51,691 nt of DNA from a phage, in sequence record OZ346160.1; one strand, 5' to 3'. This document shows, in pieces, positions 16,562 to 44,108 of the stretch; position 1 is the stretch's first letter, and each line of letters begins with the position of its first letter. A model generated the notes under the pieces. The model searched no databases, was not told the DNA's origin, and was given only the letters and a program-made list of their open reading frames with translations. The position numbers and the translations under genes are program-made.

Positions 16562-16586
16562 AACCAGCATTGCGCTGGTTTTTTTG
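16562..16586 (+). terminator. rho-independent terminator after HNH gene
   Basis: AACCAGC-attgc-GCTGGTT followed by T7. Confidence 0.55.
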
Positions 16587-16598
16587 TGCCTTTATAAT
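16570..16598 (+). promoter_or_regulatory. putative sigma70 promoter for J-like gene
   Basis: TTGCGC - 17 nt - TATAAT (16593..16598), overlapping the HNH terminator hairpin. Confidence 0.3.
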
Positions 16599-16634
16599 GT
16601 GCAAACCAAGAAACAGCACAAAGGGTTAAAAGTC

Positions 16635-19600
16635 ATGGCTAAATATATGATAAGCGGCAGTAAGGGCGGAAGCAAAAAGCCATACGTGCCAAAAGAGATG
16701 GAAGATAACCTGATCTCGATAAACAAGATTAAAGTTTTGCTGGCTGTATCTGATGGCGAGTGCGATCCAGATTTCACGTTGCGCGATCTTTATCTTGATG
16801 ATGTTCCGGTTATTGCCAGCGATGGCACTGTTAACTATGAGGGTGTAACGGCTGAATATAGACCGGGCACACAGACGCAAGATTACATCCAGGGGTTTAC
16901 TGACACATCAAGCGAGGTGACAGTTTCGCGAGATATTACAATAGACAATCCCTATATTATCTCTGTAACAAACAAAAATCTTTCTGCAATCAGAATCAAG
17001 ATTCTGATGCCAACTGGCATAAAGCAGGAGGATAACGGCGATCTGGTAGGTGTTAGTGTCACATATGCCGTTGATATGGCGGTTGATGGCGAATCTTACA
17101 AAGAAGTTTTGCTGGACACCATTAACGGTAAAACGAGAACAGGTTACGACCGCAGTCGCCGTATCGACTTGCCGAAGTTCAATGATCGCGTATTGTTCCG
17201 CGTTCGACGAGTTACGCCAGACAGCACATCTTCAAAGGTGACTGATAAAATCAAACTGCAAAGTTACGCTGAGGTTGTGGATGCAAAATTCCGTTATCCT
17301 CTGACTGGCCTTGTATTTGTAGAATTTGACAGCGAATTGTTTCCTACACAAATCCCTAACATTTCTATAAAAAAGAAATGGAAGATTATTAATGTGCCAA
17401 GCAACTATGATCCAATATCAAGAGAATATCATGGGTCATGGGATGGGACTTTTAAGAAAGCGTGGTCAAATAATCCTGCATGGGTTCTTTATGATCTGGT
17501 GACGAATCAGCGTTATGGACTTGACCAGCGAGAGTTAGGAATACAGATCGACAAGTGGAGCTTATACGAGGCAGGCGTTTACTGTGATCAGAAAGTTCCA
17601 GACGGTAAGGGCGGTACAGAGCCTCGCTACCTATGCGATGTGGTGATTCAGAATCAAGTTGAGGCTTATCAGCTAATCCGTGACATTTGCTCAATCTTTC
17701 GCGGAATGAGCTTTTGGAATGGTGAGAGCTTATCAATCGTGATTGATAAGCCGCGCGATCCATCATACGTGTTTACTAATGAAAACGTCATCAACGGTGA
17801 TTTTCAGTACACAACCGCAAGCGAAAAAAGCATGTACACGCAGTGTAACGTGACGTTTGACGACGAACAAAACATGTATCAGCAGGACGTAGAGGGGGTT
17901 TTTGATACTGAGGCGGCATTACGATTTGGATACAATCCAACAAGCATTACAGCGATCGGGTGTACACGCAGGAGCGAAGCGAATCGTCGCGGTCGGTGGG
18001 TTTTGAAAACAAACCTTAGAAGCACTACTGTAAACTTTGCTACCGGACTAGAGGGGATGATTCCATCAATAGGTGATGTGATTGCTATCGCTGATAATTT
18101 TCATAGCAGCAACCTAACGTTAAACCTATCGGGCCGAGTGATGGAAGTTTCAGGATTGCAGGTTTTCGTTCCGTTTAAGGTTGATGCTCGTCCTGGTGAT
18201 TTTATTATCATCAACAAGCCGGACGGCAAGCCAGTTAAGCGCACGATTTCAAAGGTGAGCGCAGACGGAAAAACCATTGAGTTAAATATTGGCTTTGGTT
18301 TTGATGTTAAGCCTGATACTGTTTTTGCGATTGACCGTACTGACCTTGCGTTGCAGCAATACGTTGTGACAACTATCAGCAAGGGTGATGATGAAAACGA
18401 GTTTACCTTTTCAATCACGGCTGTGGAGTACGATCCGAACAAATACGACGAGATTGATTACGGCGTAAACATTGATGACAGGCCAACTTCAATTGTTCAG
18501 CCTGACGTGATGGTAGCGCCTGAGAACGTGCAGATCTCATCTTATTCTCGCGTTGTGCAGGGTGTCAGCGTTGAAACTATGGTTGTGTCGTGGGAAAAAG
18601 TGCCTTATGCGTCACTGTATGAAATGCAATGGCGAAAGGGTGATGGTAACTGGCTGAATACGCCGCAGACCGCTAACAAAGAGATAGAGGTAGAAGGAAT
18701 TTATTCAGGCAACTACCAAGTAAGGGTGAGATCCGTTTCTGCAAGCGGTAACACTTCCCCGTGGTCAAAGATTGCAACCGCAACCCTGACAGGTAAAGTT
18801 GGCGAGCCAGGAGCGCCGATTAATCTTACAGCTTCTGATAATGAAGTTTTTGGCATTCGTGTCAAATGGGGTATGCCGGAAGGGTCAGGAGATACGGCTT
18901 ACATCGAGCTTCACCAATCGCCAGATGGAACGGTGGAAAACTCAAGTTTGCTTACGCTGATCCCGTATCCTCAATATGAGTATTGGCATGGCACGTTACC
19001 AGCTGGGCAAGTTGTATGGTATAGAATCCGTAGCGTTGACAGGATCGGCAATGTTTCCGGCTGGACTGACTTTGTTCGCGGCATGGCGTCAGATGATGTT
19101 GATTCTGTTTTAGGCGACATTCTGGACAAGATTTTTGATACCGAAGCTGGTCAAGAAATCAAAGAGAACGCCATAGACAGCGCCAACAAAATCAAAGACC
19201 AGGCGCAATCAATCATTCAGAACGCTTTGGCAAATGATTCTGATGTTAGAGTTATGAAAAAGGAGAATGGGAAACGGAAAGCTGAATTTAGGCAATCTAT
19301 ACAGATGATTGCTGATGAAACAGAAGCAAGGGTGACAGCGTTAACGCAATTAAAAGCAGAATTTGATGAGGAGATAACTAGCGAAGTAACAAGACTTGAT
19401 CAGGCGATCGCAACAGAATCAGAAACGCGAGCAACAGCTATAGAGGAATTAAAATCACAGATTGGTGATGATATACAGGGGCAGTTAACTAGAGTTGAGG
19501 AAGCGATTGCAAGCGAAACAGAGGCGCGCGTTTCTGCCGATACTGCATTAACGGCAAAGTTTGGTGATCTTGAGTCGGCACTTACTGAAAAACTTGATTC

Positions 19601-20060
19601 ATGGGCTGGCGTTGATGGAGTTGGCGCACAGTACGCAATGAAACTTGGATTGACATACAACGGGCAGAAGTACAGCGCTGGTATGGTGATGCAGCTTTCG
19701 CAGGGTTCATCCGGCCTTATTTCGCAGATTTTGTTTGATGCGAACAGGTTCGCTATCATGACAAGTTCGACTGGAGGGTCGTATACATTGCCTTTTGTGG
19801 TAGAAAATAACCAAGTTTTCATTAACAGTCTGTTAGTGAAAAGCGGATCAATCACAAACGCCATGATCGGTAACTTCATCCAATCAAACAATTACGTTTG
19901 GAATCAAACAGGATGGAGGCTGGATAAAAACGGCACGTTTGAAAATTATGGTTCTACTCCTGGAGAAGGGGCCATGAAAATGACAAACGAAACGATCAGC
20001 GTTAGGGATGTAAACGGAGTTTTGCGTGTTCAGATTGGTAGGCTGACTGGTACGTGGTAA
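16635..20060 (+). CDS. tail tip / host specificity protein (lambda J-like central fibre)
   Basis: 1141 aa from MAKYMISG; size, position after I-like gene, fibronectin III-like segments in middle. Confidence 0.8.
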   Translation: MAKYMISGSKGGSKKPYVPKEMEDNLISINKIKVLLAVSDGECDPDFTLRDLYLDDVPVIASDGTVNYEGVTAEYRPGTQTQDYIQGFTDTSSEVTVSRDITIDNPYIISVTNKNLSAIRIKILMPTGIKQEDNGDLVGVSVTYAVDMAVDGESYKEVLLDTINGKTRTGYDRSRRIDLPKFNDRVLFRVRRVTPDSTSSKVTDKIKLQSYAEVVDAKFRYPLTGLVFVEFDSELFPTQIPNISIKKKWKIINVPSNYDPISREYHGSWDGTFKKAWSNNPAWVLYDLVTNQRYGLDQRELGIQIDKWSLYEAGVYCDQKVPDGKGGTEPRYLCDVVIQNQVEAYQLIRDICSIFRGMSFWNGESLSIVIDKPRDPSYVFTNENVINGDFQYTTASEKSMYTQCNVTFDDEQNMYQQDVEGVFDTEAALRFGYNPTSITAIGCTRRSEANRRGRWVLKTNLRSTTVNFATGLEGMIPSIGDVIAIADNFHSSNLTLNLSGRVMEVSGLQVFVPFKVDARPGDFIIINKPDGKPVKRTISKVSADGKTIELNIGFGFDVKPDTVFAIDRTDLALQQYVVTTISKGDDENEFTFSITAVEYDPNKYDEIDYGVNIDDRPTSIVQPDVMVAPENVQISSYSRVVQGVSVETMVVSWEKVPYASLYEMQWRKGDGNWLNTPQTANKEIEVEGIYSGNYQVRVRSVSASGNTSPWSKIATATLTGKVGEPGAPINLTASDNEVFGIRVKWGMPEGSGDTAYIELHQSPDGTVENSSLLTLIPYPQYEYWHGTLPAGQVVWYRIRSVDRIGNVSGWTDFVRGMASDDVDSVLGDILDKIFDTEAGQEIKENAIDSANKIKDQAQSIIQNALANDSDVRVMKKENGKRKAEFRQSIQMIADETEARVTALTQLKAEFDEEITSEVTRLDQAIATESETRATAIEELKSQIGDDIQGQLTRVEEAIASETEARVSADTALTAKFGDLESALTEKLDSWAGVDGVGAQYAMKLGLTYNGQKYSAGMVMQLSQGSSGLISQILFDANRFAIMTSSTGGSYTLPFVVENNQVFINSLLVKSGSITNAMIGNFIQSNNYVWNQTGWRLDKNGTFENYGSTPGEGAMKMTNETISVRDVNGVLRVQIGRLTGTW

Positions 20061-20065
20061 AATCA

Positions 20066-20090
20066 AAGCGGGGCGCTTGCCCCGCATTTA
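20066..20090 (+). terminator. terminator-like hairpin after J-like gene
   Basis: GCGGGGCG-ctt-GCCCCGC with weak T-run. Confidence 0.4.
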
Positions 20091-20103
20091 TGGAGGTTTA
20101 ATA

Positions 20104-20409
20104 ATGGCTGAGTATGGAATTTCAACGTGGGATGCAAACGGTAATTATAATAACTATGGGATCAAACCTGTTTCAGTTGTTGGTGTTATAAGCCTTTCCG
20201 CTGGTCAGACAAGCGGATCGTGGAGTTTTAGCATTCCAAGTGGTTTTAAGGTTGGGTATGTTGTTTCACTTGATGAGGGCGCTAGAGGGGTTGGGAGGGA
20301 AATAGTGGCATCTGGAAACACAATAAGAATTAGTCCTACATCGTCAGTTGGTCCAAATAGGTATTCTTCCTCAAAGTGCGAGTTAGTTGTTTTTCTTGAG
20401 AGGGCTTAA
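20104..20409 (+). CDS. hypothetical tail-associated protein (MAEYG family)
   Basis: Start MAEYGISTWD with GGAGG RBS; N-terminus paralogous to next gene. Confidence 0.4.
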   Translation: MAEYGISTWDANGNYNNYGIKPVSVVGVISLSAGQTSGSWSFSIPSGFKVGYVVSLDEGARGVGREIVASGNTIRISPTSSVGPNRYSSSKCELVVFLERA

Positions 20410-20410
20410 A

Positions 20411-21049
20411 ATGGCTGAATATGGAGCAATGTTATCTTTACCAAATGGGAATCCATTTATCACACCAAAATCAACGCCATTTTGCTTATATGGCAAGTAC
20501 ACTTATTCATCTTCTGGCACTTCTGCCTATCATAGCGCAAGCGCAAATATACCATTAAATCAATCTTATCCATGTATGGCATTTATAAAAACAACAAACA
20601 CACAGCAGCCAACCGCATTAATAGCTTACAGGAACGGTGGCAACATTTATGTAAACGGAGGCAATCCATACGGGCAATCATTTACAATGACTGTTTATAT
20701 ATTTGCTATCTTCCCTCAAACTCTACCCAAATATGGTATGGCAATATGGGATGAAAGCGGAAAGTTGGTTTTAACTAATGAGAGCAGGGTACTAACAGAC
20801 CTTGTAACAATTGGTACTCCTGGATCTTCTGGTGGGACGAATATAGATCAGACATTGTCTGGTTCTTATGCTGTTTGCCCATCAAGGCTTGGTGCGGTTA
20901 TAGGTATGGGTGCGTCTGACATATACACATCGTGCAGGTATAATGGTTCAAGCACAAGGATAAGTGCGGCAAGGACAACTCCAGGAACAGGATCTATAAC
21001 AAACAACGGAAATTCAATAATTGCAATAAAGACTGATATTTACGACTAA
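20411..21049 (+). CDS. hypothetical tail-associated protein (MAEYG family)
   Basis: Start MAEYGAMLS; contains internal repeat of the MAEYG/WD..G motif (KYGMAIWDESGK); bidirectional terminator downstream. Confidence 0.45.
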   Translation: MAEYGAMLSLPNGNPFITPKSTPFCLYGKYTYSSSGTSAYHSASANIPLNQSYPCMAFIKTTNTQQPTALIAYRNGGNIYVNGGNPYGQSFTMTVYIFAIFPQTLPKYGMAIWDESGKLVLTNESRVLTDLVTIGTPGSSGGTNIDQTLSGSYAVCPSRLGAVIGMGASDIYTSCRYNGSSTRISAARTTPGTGSITNNGNSIIAIKTDIYD

Positions 21050-21051
21050 TT

Positions 21052-21083
21052 AAAAAAAGGGGCTTTTGCCCCTTTGTTTTTAT
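21052..21083. terminator. bidirectional terminator between convergent tail and lipoprotein genes
   Basis: A-run, GGGGC-tttt-GCCCC, T-run. Confidence 0.6.
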
Positions 21084-21311
21084 TTAAAGACTGCAATCAG
21101 CGTTTTTAAAGTTATCAATGCTTACCCACTGAAAATTAAATGGATAGCCAGCCTTAACAAGAGTGCGATCGCCAACTCGTTTTGCCCCAAAGATAGCAAC
21201 TGAATACTGCATTCCGCTATTTTCATAAATAGCCGTGCATTCACGTTTAGGCATATTTGCGCAACCAGTCAGCGCAACGGCTGCGATTAAAACGGCAATT
21301 AACTTTTTCAT
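21084..21311 (-). CDS. small lipoprotein, Cor-like superinfection exclusion candidate
   Basis: 75 aa; signal peptide with lipobox LTGC; convergent with tail genes, as for cor genes that follow tail fibre genes in T1/phi80-type phages; assignment by position and lipoprotein character only. Confidence 0.5.
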   Translation of the reverse strand: MKKLIAVLIAAVALTGCANMPKRECTAIYENSGMQYSVAIFGAKRVGDRTLVKAGYPFNFQWVSIDNFKNADCSL

Positions 21312-21340
21312 CTTTTCATCTCCTTTGTTGTTGTTGGTTC

Positions 21341-21385
21341 AACTATACACGATTTTAAGGCGCGCGTTTAGCAAAAAGTGCTACT
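21341..21385 (-). promoter_or_regulatory. cassette copy upstream of Cor-like lipoprotein gene
   Basis: Reverse-complement reads AGTAGCACTTTTTGCTAAACG followed by TATAGT about 39 nt downstream. Confidence 0.45.
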
Positions 21386-21489
21386 TGTTATTTTTTGTTT
21401 TCCGGTGTTATCGGATTTAAGACGGCGTAAATTTAGCGCAAATTTTAGCCAACATAAGAACAATAAATAATCAATAAAATAGATATATA

Positions 21490-21700
21490 CATATAAAATC
21501 AATAGTTTATTTATTTATGTATGTATATTTGTTTTTTCTTGTTGTCTGTGTTTCTTGTGGTTTTGGTTGTTTGTGGTGATTTTTCTTTCTGAGTATCTGT
21601 ATGTGCCATCATTCATGTGTATGTATATAATCCGGCGTATCTGAGAGAACAAGGGAACAAGAAAAATAACACATATTAATCATTGACTTACGTTTCAAAT
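21490..21700. repeat. AT/TG-rich regulatory region, paralogue A
   Basis: Shares TTATTTATTTAT(G)TATGTAT, T/G-rich TTGTNGT tracts and GGGAACAAGAAAAA with 42500..42770. Confidence 0.5.
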
Positions 21701-21753
21701 TTGTTTTCTTGCAATCTAAGAACGTTTAGAAAACAGAAAAAACAAAACAACTA

Positions 21754-21781
21754 TTGACTAAATCAACCAAATGGCTACAAT
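21754..21781 (+). promoter_or_regulatory. sigma70 promoter (recombination operon)
   Basis: TTGACT (21754..21759) - 16 nt - TACAAT (21776..21781); AAGGAG RBS and ATG 21812 follow. Confidence 0.6.
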
Positions 21782-21811
21782 GCACACACAAAGCAACAAG
21801 GAGCATCAAAG

Positions 21812-22867
21812 ATGAGTGATTTTAACGCCTACACTAGCGAAGAAATGAGCAATGAGCTTTATCATGATCCTAACGCGTGGACGGCTGAATACGTCAGCGG
21901 TTCCAGCTTGGCGGAGATTTACAGCACTTGCCCGGCGTACTGGAAGTACAAGCCTCGCCAGGAAACTAAGGCACTTGTTTTCGGTACGCAGTCGCATACC
22001 AATTTTGAAAGCAAGGAGTTATTCGAAAAAACATATCGCCGCGCACCGTCGCAGGATGACTTTAAAGATCTGATCGCAAGCCAAACGGCGTTGGCTTCAA
22101 AGCTGAAATCTTTTGGCCTGAAAGGCACGACGGGTAAGCAGTATCCAGAATTGCTGGAAATGCTGTACAAGTGCGGTGAGGATCTCAATGTATGGTGGCT
22201 TATCGAAATGATGGCAGAATGCCAGGCCGCAGCGGACGGAGTGCAGTTAATCGACGCGAAAGACTATGATGCCTGTGTAGCGATGCGGCGCGTACTTGAG
22301 GCAATACCTGAGCATAATGCTTGCATGAATAGCCCAACCGCGCAGCGTGAAATGTCAATATTCGGGATCATCAATGGCGTAAAAGTTAAAGTGCGTCTTG
22401 ATCACGTTGACGTAAACAAGGATGTAAAGGCCACAATCATTAACGGTTACGACGAAAAAGGCCGACCGATTTATGAAGAAGTCATCTATCCAGAAGCTGT
22501 GATTATCACTGACTATAAAACAACGGTTAGCGCAAATCCGGTTGACTTCCAGCGCCTGGCTTACAATCACGGCTATTATCTCAAAATGGCTTTGCAGCAT
22601 GATTTATTTAAAAAGGCGTATCCAGACGAGGAAAGGCCAGTAATTGTGAGATTGCTTGCTCAAGAGAAGAAAGAGCCTTACTTGCCGCTCGCATTCCGCA
22701 TGAACATTGAGCAATTGAAGATCGGGCGTATCCAGTACATGAGCGTGATCAACAAGTTCAACGTTTGCCAACAGTTAGATGAATGGCCTTCGTATGCAAA
22801 CGGGCAACCAGAAATTGATCTTGATACTCCTGATTGGGTGCGCGCTCAATTCAGGCAGTATCTGTGA
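21812..22867 (+). CDS. recombination exonuclease (PD-(D/E)xK, RecE/YqaJ-like)
   Basis: 351 aa; D-x-K nuclease motif VIITDYKTT; first gene after consensus sigma70 promoter; followed by annealing protein and SSB. Confidence 0.55.
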   Translation: MSDFNAYTSEEMSNELYHDPNAWTAEYVSGSSLAEIYSTCPAYWKYKPRQETKALVFGTQSHTNFESKELFEKTYRRAPSQDDFKDLIASQTALASKLKSFGLKGTTGKQYPELLEMLYKCGEDLNVWWLIEMMAECQAAADGVQLIDAKDYDACVAMRRVLEAIPEHNACMNSPTAQREMSIFGIINGVKVKVRLDHVDVNKDVKATIINGYDEKGRPIYEEVIYPEAVIITDYKTTVSANPVDFQRLAYNHGYYLKMALQHDLFKKAYPDEERPVIVRLLAQEKKEPYLPLAFRMNIEQLKIGRIQYMSVINKFNVCQQLDEWPSYANGQPEIDLDTPDWVRAQFRQYL

Positions 22868-33578: not shown

Positions 33579-33794
33579 ATGAAAGATTTTATTAACGCAG
33601 CTACCGCCGGATCTGGCGGTTCATCTATCGCAAGCGCCGCTACAGGGCAGTTAACCATTGCTATTGCCAGTTTTGTTTTAATGGCTGCATTCGGTGCGTG
33701 GGGCGCTTACCTTCGCTGGCGTGATAGTAAAAAATTCCACGAGGCGATCGAAAAAGGTGATATTCAAAAAGCTATTGAGATCAGGGGCAAGTAA
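33579..33794 (+). CDS. holin (pinholin-like)
   Basis: 71 aa, Gly/Ala-rich hydrophobic segments, charged C-terminus; immediately upstream of SAR endolysin. Confidence 0.55.
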
Positions 33795-34285
33795 TGAGCA
33801 TAAAGAACAGGGTAGCGGCTGCGGCCTTTGGCGTTGCGGTTGCCTTGACTTCTCCACTTCTTGAAGAAATCGAAGGGGTAAGATACAAGCCATACAAAGA
33901 TATTGCGGGGGTATGGACGGTTTGCGCAGGAATCACCGGACCCGATGTTATCCTGGGGAAAACGTACACTAAAAAAGAGTGTGATGCTTTGTTGGCTAAG
34001 CATATCCAGGTTGCCAAAAAGGAAGTTGATAAGCAAGTTAAGGTTGACATTCCTGATAGTATGCGTGCAGCAATGTACTCATTCACTTACAATGCAGGTG
34101 TGGGAGCTTTCAGAAATTCAACAATGCTGAAACTCATCAACCAGGGGAAACTAAAAGATGCTTGCGATCAGCTTTATCGTTGGACGTATTACCACAACCC
34201 CAAAACAGGAAGGCGCGAGAAGTCTAAAGGCTTACTTAACAGGCGCAAGGTCGAATACAAATATTGCACAATGGATCTGAAATGA
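33794..34285 (+). CDS. SAR endolysin (T4-type lysozyme, GH24)
   Basis: Catalytic E-x8-D-x5-T triad ([16 protein letters not shown]); weakly hydrophobic Ala/Gly-rich N-terminal signal-arrest-release segment. Confidence 0.8.
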
Positions 34286-34677
34286 TGAAGAAATTTTTAC
34301 TTACACCAATCGCAATGGCGGTGATCTTGTCTGGATGTTCAAGCGTTACGCCACTGACCGGATTAATCGGCAGTAAGCCGGAAATCACAGCACAGGCTGG
34401 CGCGGAGAACGTGAAGCAGACAGTTGGCATTACAGCAAAGCAGGACGCCAGCACAAAACAGAAAACCACAATAAAGGAATCTTCGGTTGACAAGGTGGAT
34501 ACGTCCAGCAAGAAGGATTTCACAACATCAACCATTCAGGCCAATACCATCAAGGCAGAAAAAATTCAGGTCGTGCAGGGTAATAACGGCAGATGGTACG
34601 ATCCAATAATCATATGCGTGGTTGTGTTCATTGTGCTGATTTGTCTTTACTGGAGGGAAAAGAAAAAGGAGGCTTAA
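34282..34677 (+). CDS. unimolecular spanin (u-spanin)
   Basis: Start MMKKFLL; lipobox LSGCS at N-terminus and single C-terminal transmembrane segment ([16 protein letters not shown]); last gene of lysis cassette. Confidence 0.65.
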
Positions 34678-42339: not shown

Positions 42340-42499
42340 TTGGTTGCAGGGGAGATAGTGAAACCCTCCCCTCTTGCCTCACTTTTCCGCCTGGCTGTCA
42401 GTGGTTGTTATGTTACGTTCCCGCGTGTTCTTTTGTTGACCTTCCGCAAAATACGATAACAAAAAATAACAAACAATACCTATATAATACATTGAAAAA

Positions 42500-42770
42500 T
42501 AAGGATTATTTATTTATATGTATCTATATATTCTCTTTTGTTATCTTGGTTATTGTGGTATTTGGTGGGGGTATATAGTTTTTGTGTATCTATATGTGTG
42601 TATGGGTATGTAGGGGCATATATATCTATATGGCACTTTCCGCGAGAAAACTTCGATAACAAGCAATGATAACATTGATTTATAAGGAAAAATAACGCCC
42701 ATATTGTTATTGTGCCACCATATAAAATTGATAAAACACGCGGGAACAAGAAAAAACAGTTGACACATTA
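42500..42770. repeat. AT/TG-rich regulatory region, paralogue B
   Basis: Diverged direct repeat of 21490..21700; internal direct repeat TTCCGC..GATAACAA (about 42450..42680). Confidence 0.5.
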
Positions 42771-42788
42771 AATAGCATTATTGATAAT
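42760..42788 (+). promoter_or_regulatory. sigma70 promoter (start of + strand small-gene array)
   Basis: TTGACA (42760..42765) - 17 nt - GATAAT (42783..42788); AGGAGG RBS and ATG 42817 follow. Confidence 0.6.
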
Positions 42789-42816
42789 GCCCACACCTAA
42801 CAACCAGGAGGAAGAA

Positions 42817-43281
42817 ATGAGCGAGCAATCATTCACTGACACGCTGCGCCGTGCCGCTATTATGCTGGCTAATGGCGAGGAAGAGACGATCAAGATTCCT
42901 GACGCGTATTTGCAGGTCCACATGTTCGGCAAGAAGTCGGCAAGCAATCCGGCGGCCTACATTCGCCAGATCATGAGTCGAGTGCCAGAAGTCGCCGAGC
43001 GGGGGCGCGTATCCGTTACCCGTGGCGTTTACGGGCCGGAAGATGAAAACTTCGGTAGCACTTTCTACGAGGTAAGGATTGTTGAAGGCCGTCGCAAGGT
43101 TTACAACAAAGAGGCACTGGAAAGGGCAGTACGCCAGGCTAAGCGCAAGGTTGCAGAGGCGATCATTGATATGTCACCCAACCTGGCAAACTATGCGCCG
43201 GAAGAGTATGAAACATTATCAAAGGCCGTCGCTGACTTTCACGCGATGATCAAAAAAACTTTCCTGGAGGATGAGCAATGA
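42817..43281 (+). CDS. hypothetical protein
   Basis: Start MSEQSF with AGGAGG RBS; first gene after consensus sigma70 promoter. Confidence 0.5.
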   Translation: MSEQSFTDTLRRAAIMLANGEEETIKIPDAYLQVHMFGKKSASNPAAYIRQIMSRVPEVAERGRVSVTRGVYGPEDENFGSTFYEVRIVEGRRKVYNKEALERAVRQAKRKVAEAIIDMSPNLANYAPEEYETLSKAVADFHAMIKKTFLEDEQ

Positions 43282-43550
43282 AAAAGGCGTTAATCGGCGT
43301 TTTGGCGGCAATGGCATTCCTGACCGGATGCAAAGAAGATGGCGCGCATGTTGGCAATGTGCAGATGGCTAACCCTGGCGATGACTACAGCGTAAGGGAG
43401 CTATTCACCGCCGATGGTTGCACTGTTTACCGATTCTATGACGGTCGCACTGTTTACTTCACCAACTGCAAGGGCACTACTAGCTGGGAAGTGTCGAAAA
43501 GCAATGGCAAAGGCACGAAGACAGAACATATGACCGTCGAGACAAAATAG
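43278..43550 (+). CDS. small lipoprotein
   Basis: 90 aa; signal peptide with lipobox FLTGC; coupled (ATGA) to upstream gene. Confidence 0.55.
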   Translation: MKKALIGVLAAMAFLTGCKEDGAHVGNVQMANPGDDYSVRELFTADGCTVYRFYDGRTVYFTNCKGTTSWEVSKSNGKGTKTEHMTVETK

Positions 43551-43590
43551 CACTTTTTGTTAAAACGCCAGGCGCAAAGCCTGGCATAAT
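43546..43590 (+). promoter_or_regulatory. cassette copy
   Basis: Consensus motif overlapping stop; perfect hairpin GCCAGGC-gcaaa-GCCTGGC; CATAAT 43585..43590. Confidence 0.55.
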
Positions 43591-43622
43591 AGCCTCATCG
43601 AAACGAGATTGAGGAAACAAAA

Positions 43623-43808
43623 ATGGCACGTCGCATCACCAAAGACCTTAAAGTCCTGAACAAAGAAAACGTAGTTAAAATCCTGGTTATCTGGGGCTAC
43701 AACGAAGAAACAGCAAAGCAGAAGGTAGAGGCAGGTTATGACCTGGCTGTGAAAGCAATGCCAAACGACGACGCCAAAGGCATTGCAAACTATGTAGCTT
43801 TCTTTTAA
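43623..43808 (+). CDS. hypothetical protein
   Basis: 61-aa ORF about 75 nt downstream of cassette. Confidence 0.45.
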   Translation: MARRITKDLKVLNKENVVKILVIWGYNEETAKQKVEAGYDLAVKAMPNDDAKGIANYVAFF

Positions 43809-43823
43809 TTAGCAGGTGAATAA

Positions 43824-44009
43824 ATGAAAACGAAATTAGTCCATAAGTCAGAAATCAAGATCGGCGATACTGTGATTCACAACGGAGAGCTTAGAACGGT
43901 TGGCAAAGAGTCAATAAGCCACGATGAATTTATGGGGATCTTGTTGTTCGGTGACTCTTATCGTCTTGGTTACAAGATGGTTGAGCTTGTGGAAGAAGTG
44001 AAATTCTAA
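43824..44009 (+). CDS. hypothetical protein
   Basis: 61-aa ORF. Confidence 0.45.
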   Translation: MKTKLVHKSEIKIGDTVIHNGELRTVGKESISHDEFMGILLFGDSYRLGYKMVELVEEVKF

Positions 44010-44053
44010 ATAGCACTTTTTGTTAAAACTCAAAAACGATAACCAGGCATAAT
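44009..44053 (+). promoter_or_regulatory. cassette copy
   Basis: Consensus motif after stop TAA; CATAAT 44048..44053; hairpin GGGCG..CGCCC downstream. Confidence 0.5.
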
Positions 44054-44108
44054 AAATCACATAGGGCGGCACGGGGTCGCCCAGTTAAACCAATCAGGAG
44101 AAAGCACC

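What the first reader, a model, noticed from the sequence alone, without database searches (positions are those of the whole stretch)
21084..21311. Two small lipoproteins as superinfection-exclusion candidates
ORF 21084..21311 (- strand, lipobox LTGC) is convergent with the tail genes, the position typical of cor genes that inactivate FhuA-type receptors. A second lipoprotein (43278..43550, lipobox FLTGC) sits in the early array. Either may block receptor reuse or protect progeny from inactivation by released receptor.
Basis: inference. Interest (0 to 1): 0.45.

Follow-up and report, generated by a model that had tools for sequence, protein, structure and literature searches.

The report
Known Cor exclusion lipoprotein plus orphan lipoprotein
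The first small lipoprotein is the well-known Cor protein that T1-like phages use to shut the FhuA receptor behind them, already annotated in near-identical phages, while the second belongs to a widespread phage lipoprotein family of unknown function (DUF4884) with no link to receptor choice.

Summary
Both ORFs are real, conserved lipoprotein genes at the stated coordinates. The window is a T1-like coliphage (Drexlerviridae, Tempevirinae, Warwickvirus-like backbone).

ORF 21084..21311(-) is Cor:
- PHROG 1119, E 1.8e-28.
- 100% identical to the annotated protein of phage vB_Eco-B1.2, 98.7% to JLBYU41, 56% to T1 Cor, 35.5% to phi80 Cor.
- It closes the canonical FhuA-type cassette (gpJ, 101-aa gene, 212-aa gene, cor). 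That cassette is 97-99% identical in protein to JLBYU41's, a phage shown experimentally to need FhuA.

ORF 43278..43550(+) is a DUF4884 lipoprotein:
- About 2,500 homologues, in many unrelated phages and at least one prophage.
- It is absent from T1.
- Its two alleles assort independently of FhuA and BtuB cassettes.
- It has no sequence or fold link to Cor, Llp or Rtp45.

A receptor-specific exclusion role for it is therefore unsupported, and its function is unknown.

The parts
16584..20060 (+). gpJ-like central tail fibre / tail tip gene (context; upstream anchor of the receptor cassette)
   Evidence: 1158-aa ORF. Annotated as tail protein J in relatives. Homology with the BtuB-dependent phage FritzSarasin runs to window 20083.
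20068..20085 (.). G+C-rich hairpin just after the gpJ stop; left boundary of the exchangeable cassette
   Evidence: GCGGGGCGCTTGCCCCGC. T1 has an annotated terminator at the same place.
20104..20409 (+). 101-aa gene, homologue of T1 ST32 / phi80 gp22; a receptor-recognition or accessory protein of the FhuA-type cassette
   Evidence: 63% identical to T1 ST32, 70% to phi80 gp22, 69% to Bas09. 97% identical to JLBYU41_57.
20411..21049 (+). 212-aa gene, homologue of T1 ST31 / phi80 gp23; a receptor-binding or accessory protein of the FhuA-type cassette
   Evidence: 56% identical to T1 ST31, 61% to phi80 gp23. 98% identical to JLBYU41_58. No Pfam family.
21052..21079 (.). Bidirectional intrinsic terminator shared by the cassette genes and cor
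   Evidence: AAAGGGGC-loop-GCCCCTTT with T runs on both strands. T1 has an annotated terminator overlapping the end of cor.
21084..21311 (-). cor: Cor superinfection-exclusion lipoprotein, 75 aa precursor and 59 aa mature; Cys17 is the lipid anchor and Cys25/Cys73 the putative disulfide
   Evidence: PHROG 1119, E 1.8e-28. Identical to B1.2, 98.7% to JLBYU41, 81% to Bas09, 56% to T1, 35.5% to phi80. Invariant C17, C25, C73 and GYPF. Weak full-length match to T5 Llp 8A60_B, E 0.038.
21312..21420 (-). Conserved upstream region of cor (Shine-Dalgarno AAGGAG, TATAGT -10-like hexamer, conserved block further upstream); right boundary of the exchangeable cassette together with the signal-peptide codons 21258-21311
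   Evidence: Alignment with the BtuB-cassette lipoprotein gene of FritzSarasin is near-identical upstream and through the lipobox, then unrelated. The promoter function is inferred.
42760..42788 (+). Near-consensus sigma-70 promoter-like site (TTGACA-17-GATAAT) ahead of the two-gene start of the + strand small-gene array
   Evidence: 11 of 12 matches. A consensus match only.
42817..43281 (+). DUF7174 gene (154 aa) whose stop overlaps the start of the second lipoprotein
   Evidence: PF23796, E 2.5e-28; phrog_4841. Its allele assorts independently of the lipoprotein allele.
43278..43550 (+). Second lipoprotein: DUF4884 family, 90 aa precursor and 73 aa mature; Cys18 is the lipid anchor and Cys48/Cys64 are invariant; function unknown
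   Evidence: PF16225 at 33 bits against a cut-off of 30; phrog_6360. 2,496 homologues. Invariant C18, C48, C64. AF2 beta-meander, pLDDT 72.

Best explanation
ORF 21084..21311 is cor, the superinfection-exclusion lipoprotein that belongs to the FhuA-type receptor cassette of T1-like and lambdoid phages.

Shown here:
- It is a full-length Cor homologue with a lipoprotein signal.
- It has an outer-membrane sorting residue (Ala at +2).
- It has two invariant mature-part cysteines.
- It has the canonical synteny.
- It is under purifying selection.
- It sits in a cassette nearly identical to that of a phage proven to need FhuA.

Inferred mechanism, in order:
1. The gene is transcribed from its own conserved upstream region, opposite to the tail genes.
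2. [quoted passage not shown]
3. Cys25-Cys73 form a disulfide.
4. The protein binds the periplasmic face and plug of FhuA, as T5 Llp does. This folds extracellular loops inward, so FhuA-dependent phages can no longer adsorb.
5. This protects the infected cell from superinfection and protects progeny from being wasted on receptor in cell debris.

The second ORF (43278..43550) is a separate matter. It is an outer-membrane or periplasmic DUF4884 lipoprotein, probably made early. It is not the receptor-cognate exclusion factor and its target is unknown.
For: Family and homology:
- PHROG 1119 'Cor superinfection exclusion protein', E 1.8e-28, over residues 1-74.
- tblastn finds 233 phage records, including T1 (56%), phi80, HK022 and mEp phages (33-36%), and Dhillonvirus cor genes.
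- Reciprocal blastp of all three cassette proteins against T1, phi80 and Bas09.

Synteny:
- The gene order is identical to T1 ST33-ST32-ST31-cor, with a shared terminator.

Link to FhuA:
- JLBYU41 has the same cassette at 97%, 98% and 98.7% protein identity and is FhuA-dependent by experiment (PMC10373560).
- Bas09 (81% Cor) is FhuA-dependent (BASEL supplement).
- Ten BASEL phages with the three-gene cassette all use FhuA (PMC13164509).

Selection:
- 14 synonymous against 1 non-synonymous codon change versus JLBYU41.

Link to Llp:
- The full-length phmmer alignment to Llp of 8A60 has E 0.038.
- Cys spacing is 25-73 here and 26-73 in the Llp precursor. That is the Cys11-Cys58 disulfide of mature Llp.
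- The invariant Cor block G55-Y-P-F..W62 aligns with Llp Ile39-Trp46. That segment replaces the FhuA switch helix.
- The Llp authors state that Cor proteins likely work the same way (PMC9586334).
- An AF3 model of KanT1 Cor docked on the periplasmic face of FhuA has been published (PMC13164509).
Against:
- The Cor-Llp sequence link is weak. E is 0.038, and a 5-sequence Cor profile did not recover Llp.
- The promoter scan found no sigma-70-like site for cor on the minus strand, so the timing of expression is inferred.
- Published work cited in PMC13164509 (Arguijo-Hernandez 2018) reports that Cor interacts with other outer-membrane proteins, so direct binding to FhuA alone may be incomplete.
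Confidence: 0.85

Rival explanations
1. The second lipoprotein (DUF4884, 43278..43550) is also a superinfection-exclusion factor. It would act independently of the terminal receptor, for example by blocking a conserved step of DNA entry across the periplasm or a shared envelope machine.
For: - It has a lipoprotein signal with no Asp at +2, so an outer-membrane inner-leaflet location is expected.
- Two cysteines are invariant, consistent with a periplasmic disulfide.
- It is the second gene behind a near-consensus promoter-like site in an array of small genes.
- Its alleles differ by about 50% inside otherwise 98-100% identical DNA, a pattern often seen for genes under conflict.
- It is widespread in phages and also occurs in a prophage.
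Against: - No homologue has a known function.
- It matches no defence model.
- It is absent from T1.
- Every receptor cassette already carries its own cognate lipoprotein.
Confidence: 0.2
2. The second lipoprotein has nothing to do with exclusion. It would be a periplasmic accessory factor for the phage's own cycle, for example modulating envelope integrity, lysis timing or a host periplasmic enzyme.
For: - It occurs in phages with very different receptors and morphologies: Drexlerviridae using FhuA, BtuB or LptD, a 68-kb Serratia phage, 71-kb and 124-kb phage contigs, a 246-kb contig carrying rIIB, and a prophage region with a NinX-family gene.
- This argues for a target common to Gram-negative envelopes.
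Against: - It is not in the lysis cassette, which is complete without it: holin, endolysin and u-spanin at 33579..34677.
- No fold match to lysozyme inhibitors or other periplasmic effectors appeared among the top hits.
- It is dispensable in T1.
Confidence: 0.45
3. Cor does not act by directly jamming FhuA from the periplasm. It would instead work through other outer-membrane proteins, or by interfering with TonB-dependent energisation, which T1 and phi80 need for irreversible adsorption.
For: [quoted passage not shown]
- T1 and phi80 adsorption depends on TonB (PMC10373560).
- Llp binds a non-native, transport-cycle state of the plug.
Against: - Cor and Llp share length, disulfide spacing and an aligned contact segment.
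- A published AF3 model places Cor on the periplasmic face of FhuA with ipTM 0.84.
- Cor always travels with FhuA-specific receptor-binding genes.
Confidence: 0.15

Closest known systems
Cor of phage T1 (ST30) and of phi80 / N15 / HK022 (PHROG 1119)
   Same: Same family (56% and 35.5% identity), same length (75-77 aa), same lipobox LTGC, and the same two mature-part cysteines and GYPF block. It occupies the same place after gpJ and the gp22/gp23-like pair. As in T1, it is convergent and shares a terminator.
   Different: Nothing of substance. In phi80 the gene is co-directional with the tail genes. Here the cassette sits in a Warwickvirus-like backbone whose closest relatives carry a BtuB cassette.
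Llp of phage T5 (PDB 8A60 chain B)
   Same: A small outer-membrane lipoprotein encoded next to the FhuA-binding protein. It has similar length, the same Cys-Cys spacing, and a weak full-length alignment (E 0.038). The conserved Cor block aligns with the Llp segment that displaces the FhuA switch helix.
   Different: Identity is only about 20%. A small Cor profile did not recover Llp, and the fold was not modelled here. T5 infection is TonB-independent whereas T1 and phi80 are TonB-dependent.
Cognate exclusion lipoproteins of other Drexlerviridae cassettes (Rtp45 for LptD, PDB 9RPS; the 89-aa lipoprotein of the BtuB cassette in FritzSarasin and tonnikala)
   Same: They play the same role in the same locus. 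The BtuB-cassette lipoprotein shares its upstream region and signal peptide almost base for base with this cor. Rtp45 binds the periplasmic side of its receptor and changes surface loops.
   Different: The mature parts are unrelated in sequence and the target receptors differ.
DUF4884 (PF16225) / phrog_6360 lipoproteins, e.g. Rtp3 of phage Rtp
   Same: The second ORF is a member. Its score is above the Pfam cut-off, it has a lipobox, and it has the invariant C48/C64 and the DGCTVYRF..YFTNC core.
   Different: The window allele lacks the second cysteine pair (CGKNC) seen in most members. No member has a known function.

Membership tests
Cor superinfection-exclusion lipoproteins (PHROG 1119) | Sequence homology over the full length to characterised Cor proteins (T1, phi80, HK022/N15) | tested here: met
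   phrog_1119 E 1.8e-28, residues 1-74. 56% identity to T1, 35.5% to phi80, 33% to HK022.
Cor superinfection-exclusion lipoproteins (PHROG 1119) | Lipoprotein signal peptide with lipobox and an outer-membrane sorting signal | tested here: met
   MKKLIAVLIAAVALTG|C with Ala at +2. PF08139 lipid-attachment site at 19.6 bits against a cut-off of 20.
Cor superinfection-exclusion lipoproteins (PHROG 1119) | Two conserved cysteines near the ends of the mature protein (intramolecular disulfide) | tested here: met
   C25 and C73 are invariant in the window, T1, phi80, Bas09 and egaa. Disulfide formation itself is not testable here.
Cor superinfection-exclusion lipoproteins (PHROG 1119) | Synteny: directly after gpJ and the two small FhuA-cassette genes | tested here: met
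   Same order as T1, phi80, Bas09 and JLBYU41, with 56-98% identical neighbours.
Cor superinfection-exclusion lipoproteins (PHROG 1119) | The phage that carries it uses FhuA as terminal receptor | not testable with these tools
   By proxy only. JLBYU41 (cassette 97-99% identical) and Bas09 are FhuA-dependent by experiment.
Cor superinfection-exclusion lipoproteins (PHROG 1119) | Expression excludes FhuA-dependent phages and blocks FhuA functions | not testable with these tools
   Needs plating and adsorption assays. Reported for other Cor proteins in the literature cited.
T5 Llp-type FhuA-jamming lipoproteins | Detectable sequence relationship to Llp | tested here: inconclusive
   phmmer E 0.038, full-length alignment. 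A 5-sequence Cor profile did not find Llp.
T5 Llp-type FhuA-jamming lipoproteins | [quoted passage not shown] | not tested
A published AF3 model for the KanT1 Cor gives TM 0.69 to Llp and ipTM 0.84 with FhuA.
DUF4884 (PF16225), second ORF | Score above the Pfam gathering cut-off and the conserved core with two invariant cysteines | tested here: met
   33 bits against a cut-off of 30. Invariant C18, C48, C64, R52, F53, D55 and Y60 in 88 sequences.
Receptor-cognate exclusion lipoproteins (Cor / Llp / Rtp45 kind), second ORF | Encoded next to the receptor-binding genes | tested here: not met
   It lies about 22 kb away, in the small-gene array.
Receptor-cognate exclusion lipoproteins (Cor / Llp / Rtp45 kind), second ORF | Presence or allele co-varies with receptor specificity | tested here: not met
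   Allele A occurs with FhuA (window, B1.2) and with BtuB (tonnikala). Allele B occurs with FhuA (JLBYU41, Henu8) and with BtuB (FritzSarasin). It is also present in the LptD phages Rtp and JeanPiccard and absent from T1.
Receptor-cognate exclusion lipoproteins (Cor / Llp / Rtp45 kind), second ORF | Sequence or fold similarity to a known exclusion lipoprotein | tested here: not met
Spanins (Rz1-type o-spanin or T1 gp11-type u-spanin), either ORF | Location in the lysis cassette; for a u-spanin, a C-terminal transmembrane helix | tested here: not met
   Neither ORF is in the lysis cassette. Neither mature part has a hydrophobic stretch (maximum KD19 of 0.51 and -0.04). A separate T1 gp11-like u-spanin sits at 34282..34677.

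The most novel reading that the evidence does not exclude
The DUF4884 lipoprotein (43278..43550) could be a receptor-independent envelope effector used by many unrelated phages of Gram-negative bacteria. One example would be a second layer of superinfection exclusion acting on a conserved periplasmic or outer-membrane machine rather than on the terminal receptor. Its allele swapping inside near-identical genomes would then reflect an ongoing conflict.
Probability: 0.2. Interest if true: 0.5.

Novelty: already known. Interest (0 to 1): 0.12.

Why it matters
It matters little beyond correct annotation.

- The cor call allows a confident receptor prediction for this phage (FhuA). It also predicts cross-exclusion of other FhuA-dependent phages such as T1, phi80 and T5, which is relevant when designing phage cocktails.
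- The cassette boundaries seen here add a small detail to the known modular exchange of receptor cassettes in Drexlerviridae. The swap unit ends inside the lipoprotein signal-peptide codons, so the promoter and signal peptide stay while the mature exclusion protein and the receptor-binding genes change together.
- The DUF4884 lipoprotein is the only open question. It is a large, phage-borne, uncharacterised envelope protein family that would be cheap to test.

Tried and rejected
- A 5-sequence Cor profile searched against PDB did not recover Llp. It gave only signal-peptide-level hits, including 9RPS_D 'phage lipoprotein'.
- Two AlphaFold runs were made on the second lipoprotein, with pLDDT 60 and then 72 using 88 sequences.
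- The afdb50 library was not available.
- PADLOC gave no hits for either lipoprotein or for the DUF7174 neighbour.
- Rfam found nothing in the whole window.
- A repeat search of the cor-exonuclease spacer gave only low-complexity A+T-rich matches.
- The Rtp genome paper (PMC1367250) is not held.
- A tight two-gene DUF7174-DUF4884 module was considered and rejected. Tonnikala combines the window's lipoprotein allele with the other DUF7174 allele.
- A spanin role was considered and rejected for both ORFs.
- My first lipobox regex missed the u-spanin because of a proline in its h-region.

Full report
**What the window is.**
The first 25 kb are 96-97% identical to Warwickvirus phages (Drexlerviridae, Tempevirinae) such as Kalemo, atuna, swan01, tonnikala and FritzSarasin. 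The region around the finding is 98% identical to Escherichia phage vB_Eco-B1.2 and about 87% identical to Hanrivervirus phages. In those records the ORF is already annotated as 'super-infection exclusion protein' or 'Cor superinfection exclusion protein'.

**Observation.**
Both ORFs exist as described.

*ORF 21084..21311 (-).*
- It encodes 75 aa, with an ATG start and an AAGGAG ribosome-binding site.
- Its signal is MKKLIAVLIAAVALTG|C, with Ala at +2.
- It converges on the 212-aa gene that ends at 21049. A hairpin at 21052-21079 between them reads as a terminator on both strands.
- Against JLBYU41 the gene differs at 16 nucleotides, 14 of them third-position. This gives 14 synonymous and 1 non-synonymous codon change, which shows purifying selection.

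*ORF 43278..43550 (+).*
- It encodes 90 aa, with signal MKKALIGVLAAMAFLTG|C.
- It has a GGAGGA ribosome-binding site, and its start overlaps the stop of the upstream gene.
- Against tonnikala, 4 of 5 nucleotide differences are synonymous.

**The first ORF is Cor.**
- It matches PHROG 1119 end to end (E 1.8e-28).
- tblastn finds it in 233 phage records. Identity is 100% in SLUR29 and B1.2, 98.7% in JLBYU41, 81% in PaulSarasin (Bas09), 56% in T1, and 33-36% in phi80, HK022 and the mEp phages.
- The two genes between gpJ and cor are homologues of T1 ST32/ST31 and phi80 gp22/gp23, at 56-70% identity.
- The gene order, the convergent orientation and the shared terminator are the same as in T1. In phi80 cor is co-directional.

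**Link to FhuA.**
- This three-gene cassette has been described as specific to FhuA-dependent phages (PMC13164509 and PMC8594841).
- The window's three proteins are 97%, 98% and 98.7% identical to those of JLBYU41. JLBYU41 was shown by experiment to depend on FhuA (PMC10373560).
- Bas09 is also FhuA-dependent (BASEL supplement).
- The phage is therefore predicted to use FhuA.

**Mechanism.**
This is inferred, not shown.

- The T5 lipoprotein Llp binds the periplasmic face and plug of FhuA. It folds extracellular loops 7 and 8 inward, which abolishes binding of the receptor-binding protein. The authors note about 20% identity between Llp and Cor, including the disulfide, and expect the same mechanism (PMC9586334).
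- Here, phmmer aligns Cor with Llp (8A60_B) over the full length at E 0.038.
- The cysteines are spaced 25-73 in Cor and 26-73 in the Llp precursor. The Llp pair is the Cys11-Cys58 disulfide of mature Llp.
- The invariant Cor block G55-Y-P-F...W62 aligns with Llp Ile39-Trp46. That is the segment which takes the place of the FhuA switch helix.
- A small Cor profile did not recover Llp, and I did not model Cor. The link to Llp therefore remains suggestive.

**A detail of the cassette.**
- The backbone relatives FritzSarasin (BtuB-dependent) and tonnikala carry a different cassette. It has three minus-strand genes, including their own lipoprotein MKKLIAVIATVAALTGCAASP....
- Homology between the window and FritzSarasin stops at 20083, just after the gpJ hairpin. 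It resumes at 21258, inside the signal-peptide codons of cor.
- The upstream region, the ribosome-binding site and the signal peptide through the lipobox are nearly identical. The mature parts are unrelated.
- The exchange unit is thus the receptor-binding genes plus the mature exclusion protein, flanked by conserved DNA.

**The second ORF.**
*Family and distribution.*
- It is a member of DUF4884 (PF16225, 33 bits against a cut-off of 30) and of phrog_6360.
- A profile search finds 2,496 homologues of about 80 aa. C18, C48, C64 and an R-F-x-D...Y-x-T-x-C core are invariant.
- Homologues occur in Drexlerviridae with FhuA, BtuB and LptD receptors, including Rtp3.
- They also occur in a Serratia phage, in 71-kb and 124-kb phage contigs, in a 246-kb contig with rIIB, and in a prophage region with a NinX-family gene.
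- T1 has none.

*Alleles and mosaic boundaries.*
- Two alleles about 48% identical assort freely with receptor cassettes. Allele A occurs with FhuA (window, B1.2) and with BtuB (tonnikala). Allele B occurs with FhuA (JLBYU41, Henu8) and with BtuB (FritzSarasin).
- Against FritzSarasin, near-identity (about 98-100%) is regained by about 43585, shortly after the stop codon at 43550.
- In several relatives homology begins at 43267, just before the start codon.
- The upstream DUF7174 gene swaps independently.

*Structure and function.*
- The AlphaFold model is a beta meander (pLDDT 72). In it, C48 and C64 would face each other across a hairpin.
- It has no significant match to any solved structure, Llp and Rtp45 included.
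- Nothing ties it to receptor blocking, and its function is unknown.
- A promoter-like site with 11 of 12 consensus matches lies at 42760-42788. This fits early expression but does not prove it.

**Verdict.**
The cor assignment is correct, ordinary and already annotated. The second lipoprotein is a real, conserved, uncharacterised phage envelope protein, and the receptor-exclusion idea for it is not supported. A third lipoprotein, the T1 gp11-like u-spanin at 34282..34677, completes the set.

Noticed in passing
window 33579..34677: Complete T1-type lysis cassette: a 71-aa holin (33579..33794), an endolysin (33794..34285), and a third lipoprotein, the u-spanin (34282..34677). The u-spanin has signal [18 protein letters not shown]|C plus a C-terminal transmembrane helix and resembles T1 ST11.
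   Followed up: partly
window 20083..21258: Homology with the BtuB-dependent backbone relative FritzSarasin breaks right after the gpJ hairpin and resumes inside the cor signal-peptide codons. The promoter region, ribosome-binding site and signal peptide are shared between the FhuA-type and BtuB-type exclusion lipoprotein genes, while the mature parts are unrelated.
   Followed up: yes
window 42378..43585: Mosaic hot spot. Against FritzSarasin this stretch is 27-82% identical in 60-base windows, while DNA from 43586 onward is mostly 97-100% identical. The DUF7174 gene (42817..43281) and the DUF4884 lipoprotein swap alleles independently, with junctions at gene boundaries.
   Followed up: partly
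window 42760..42788: Near-consensus sigma-70 promoter-like site (TTGACA, 17 nt, GATAAT) at the head of the + strand small-gene array, about 28 nt before the DUF7174 start.
   Followed up: no
window 21312..21811: A 500-bp A+T-rich spacer lies between cor and the divergent exonuclease VIII gene. The record of phage B1.2 annotates four tiny ORFs here. No Rfam match and only low-complexity repeats were found.
   Followed up: partly
public records MG065636-MG065687 (hits to window 20000..22000 and 42700..44100): Several GenBank records named 'Campylobacter phage' with host Campylobacter jejuni are about 87-97% identical to this T1-like coliphage and carry cor. The host attribution looks doubtful.
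   Followed up: no
window 16584..16634: The mechanical gpJ ORF starts at a TTG. The relatives' annotated length (3426 nt against 3477 nt here) suggests the true start is the ATG of 'MAKYMISGS...' about 50 nt downstream.
   Followed up: no
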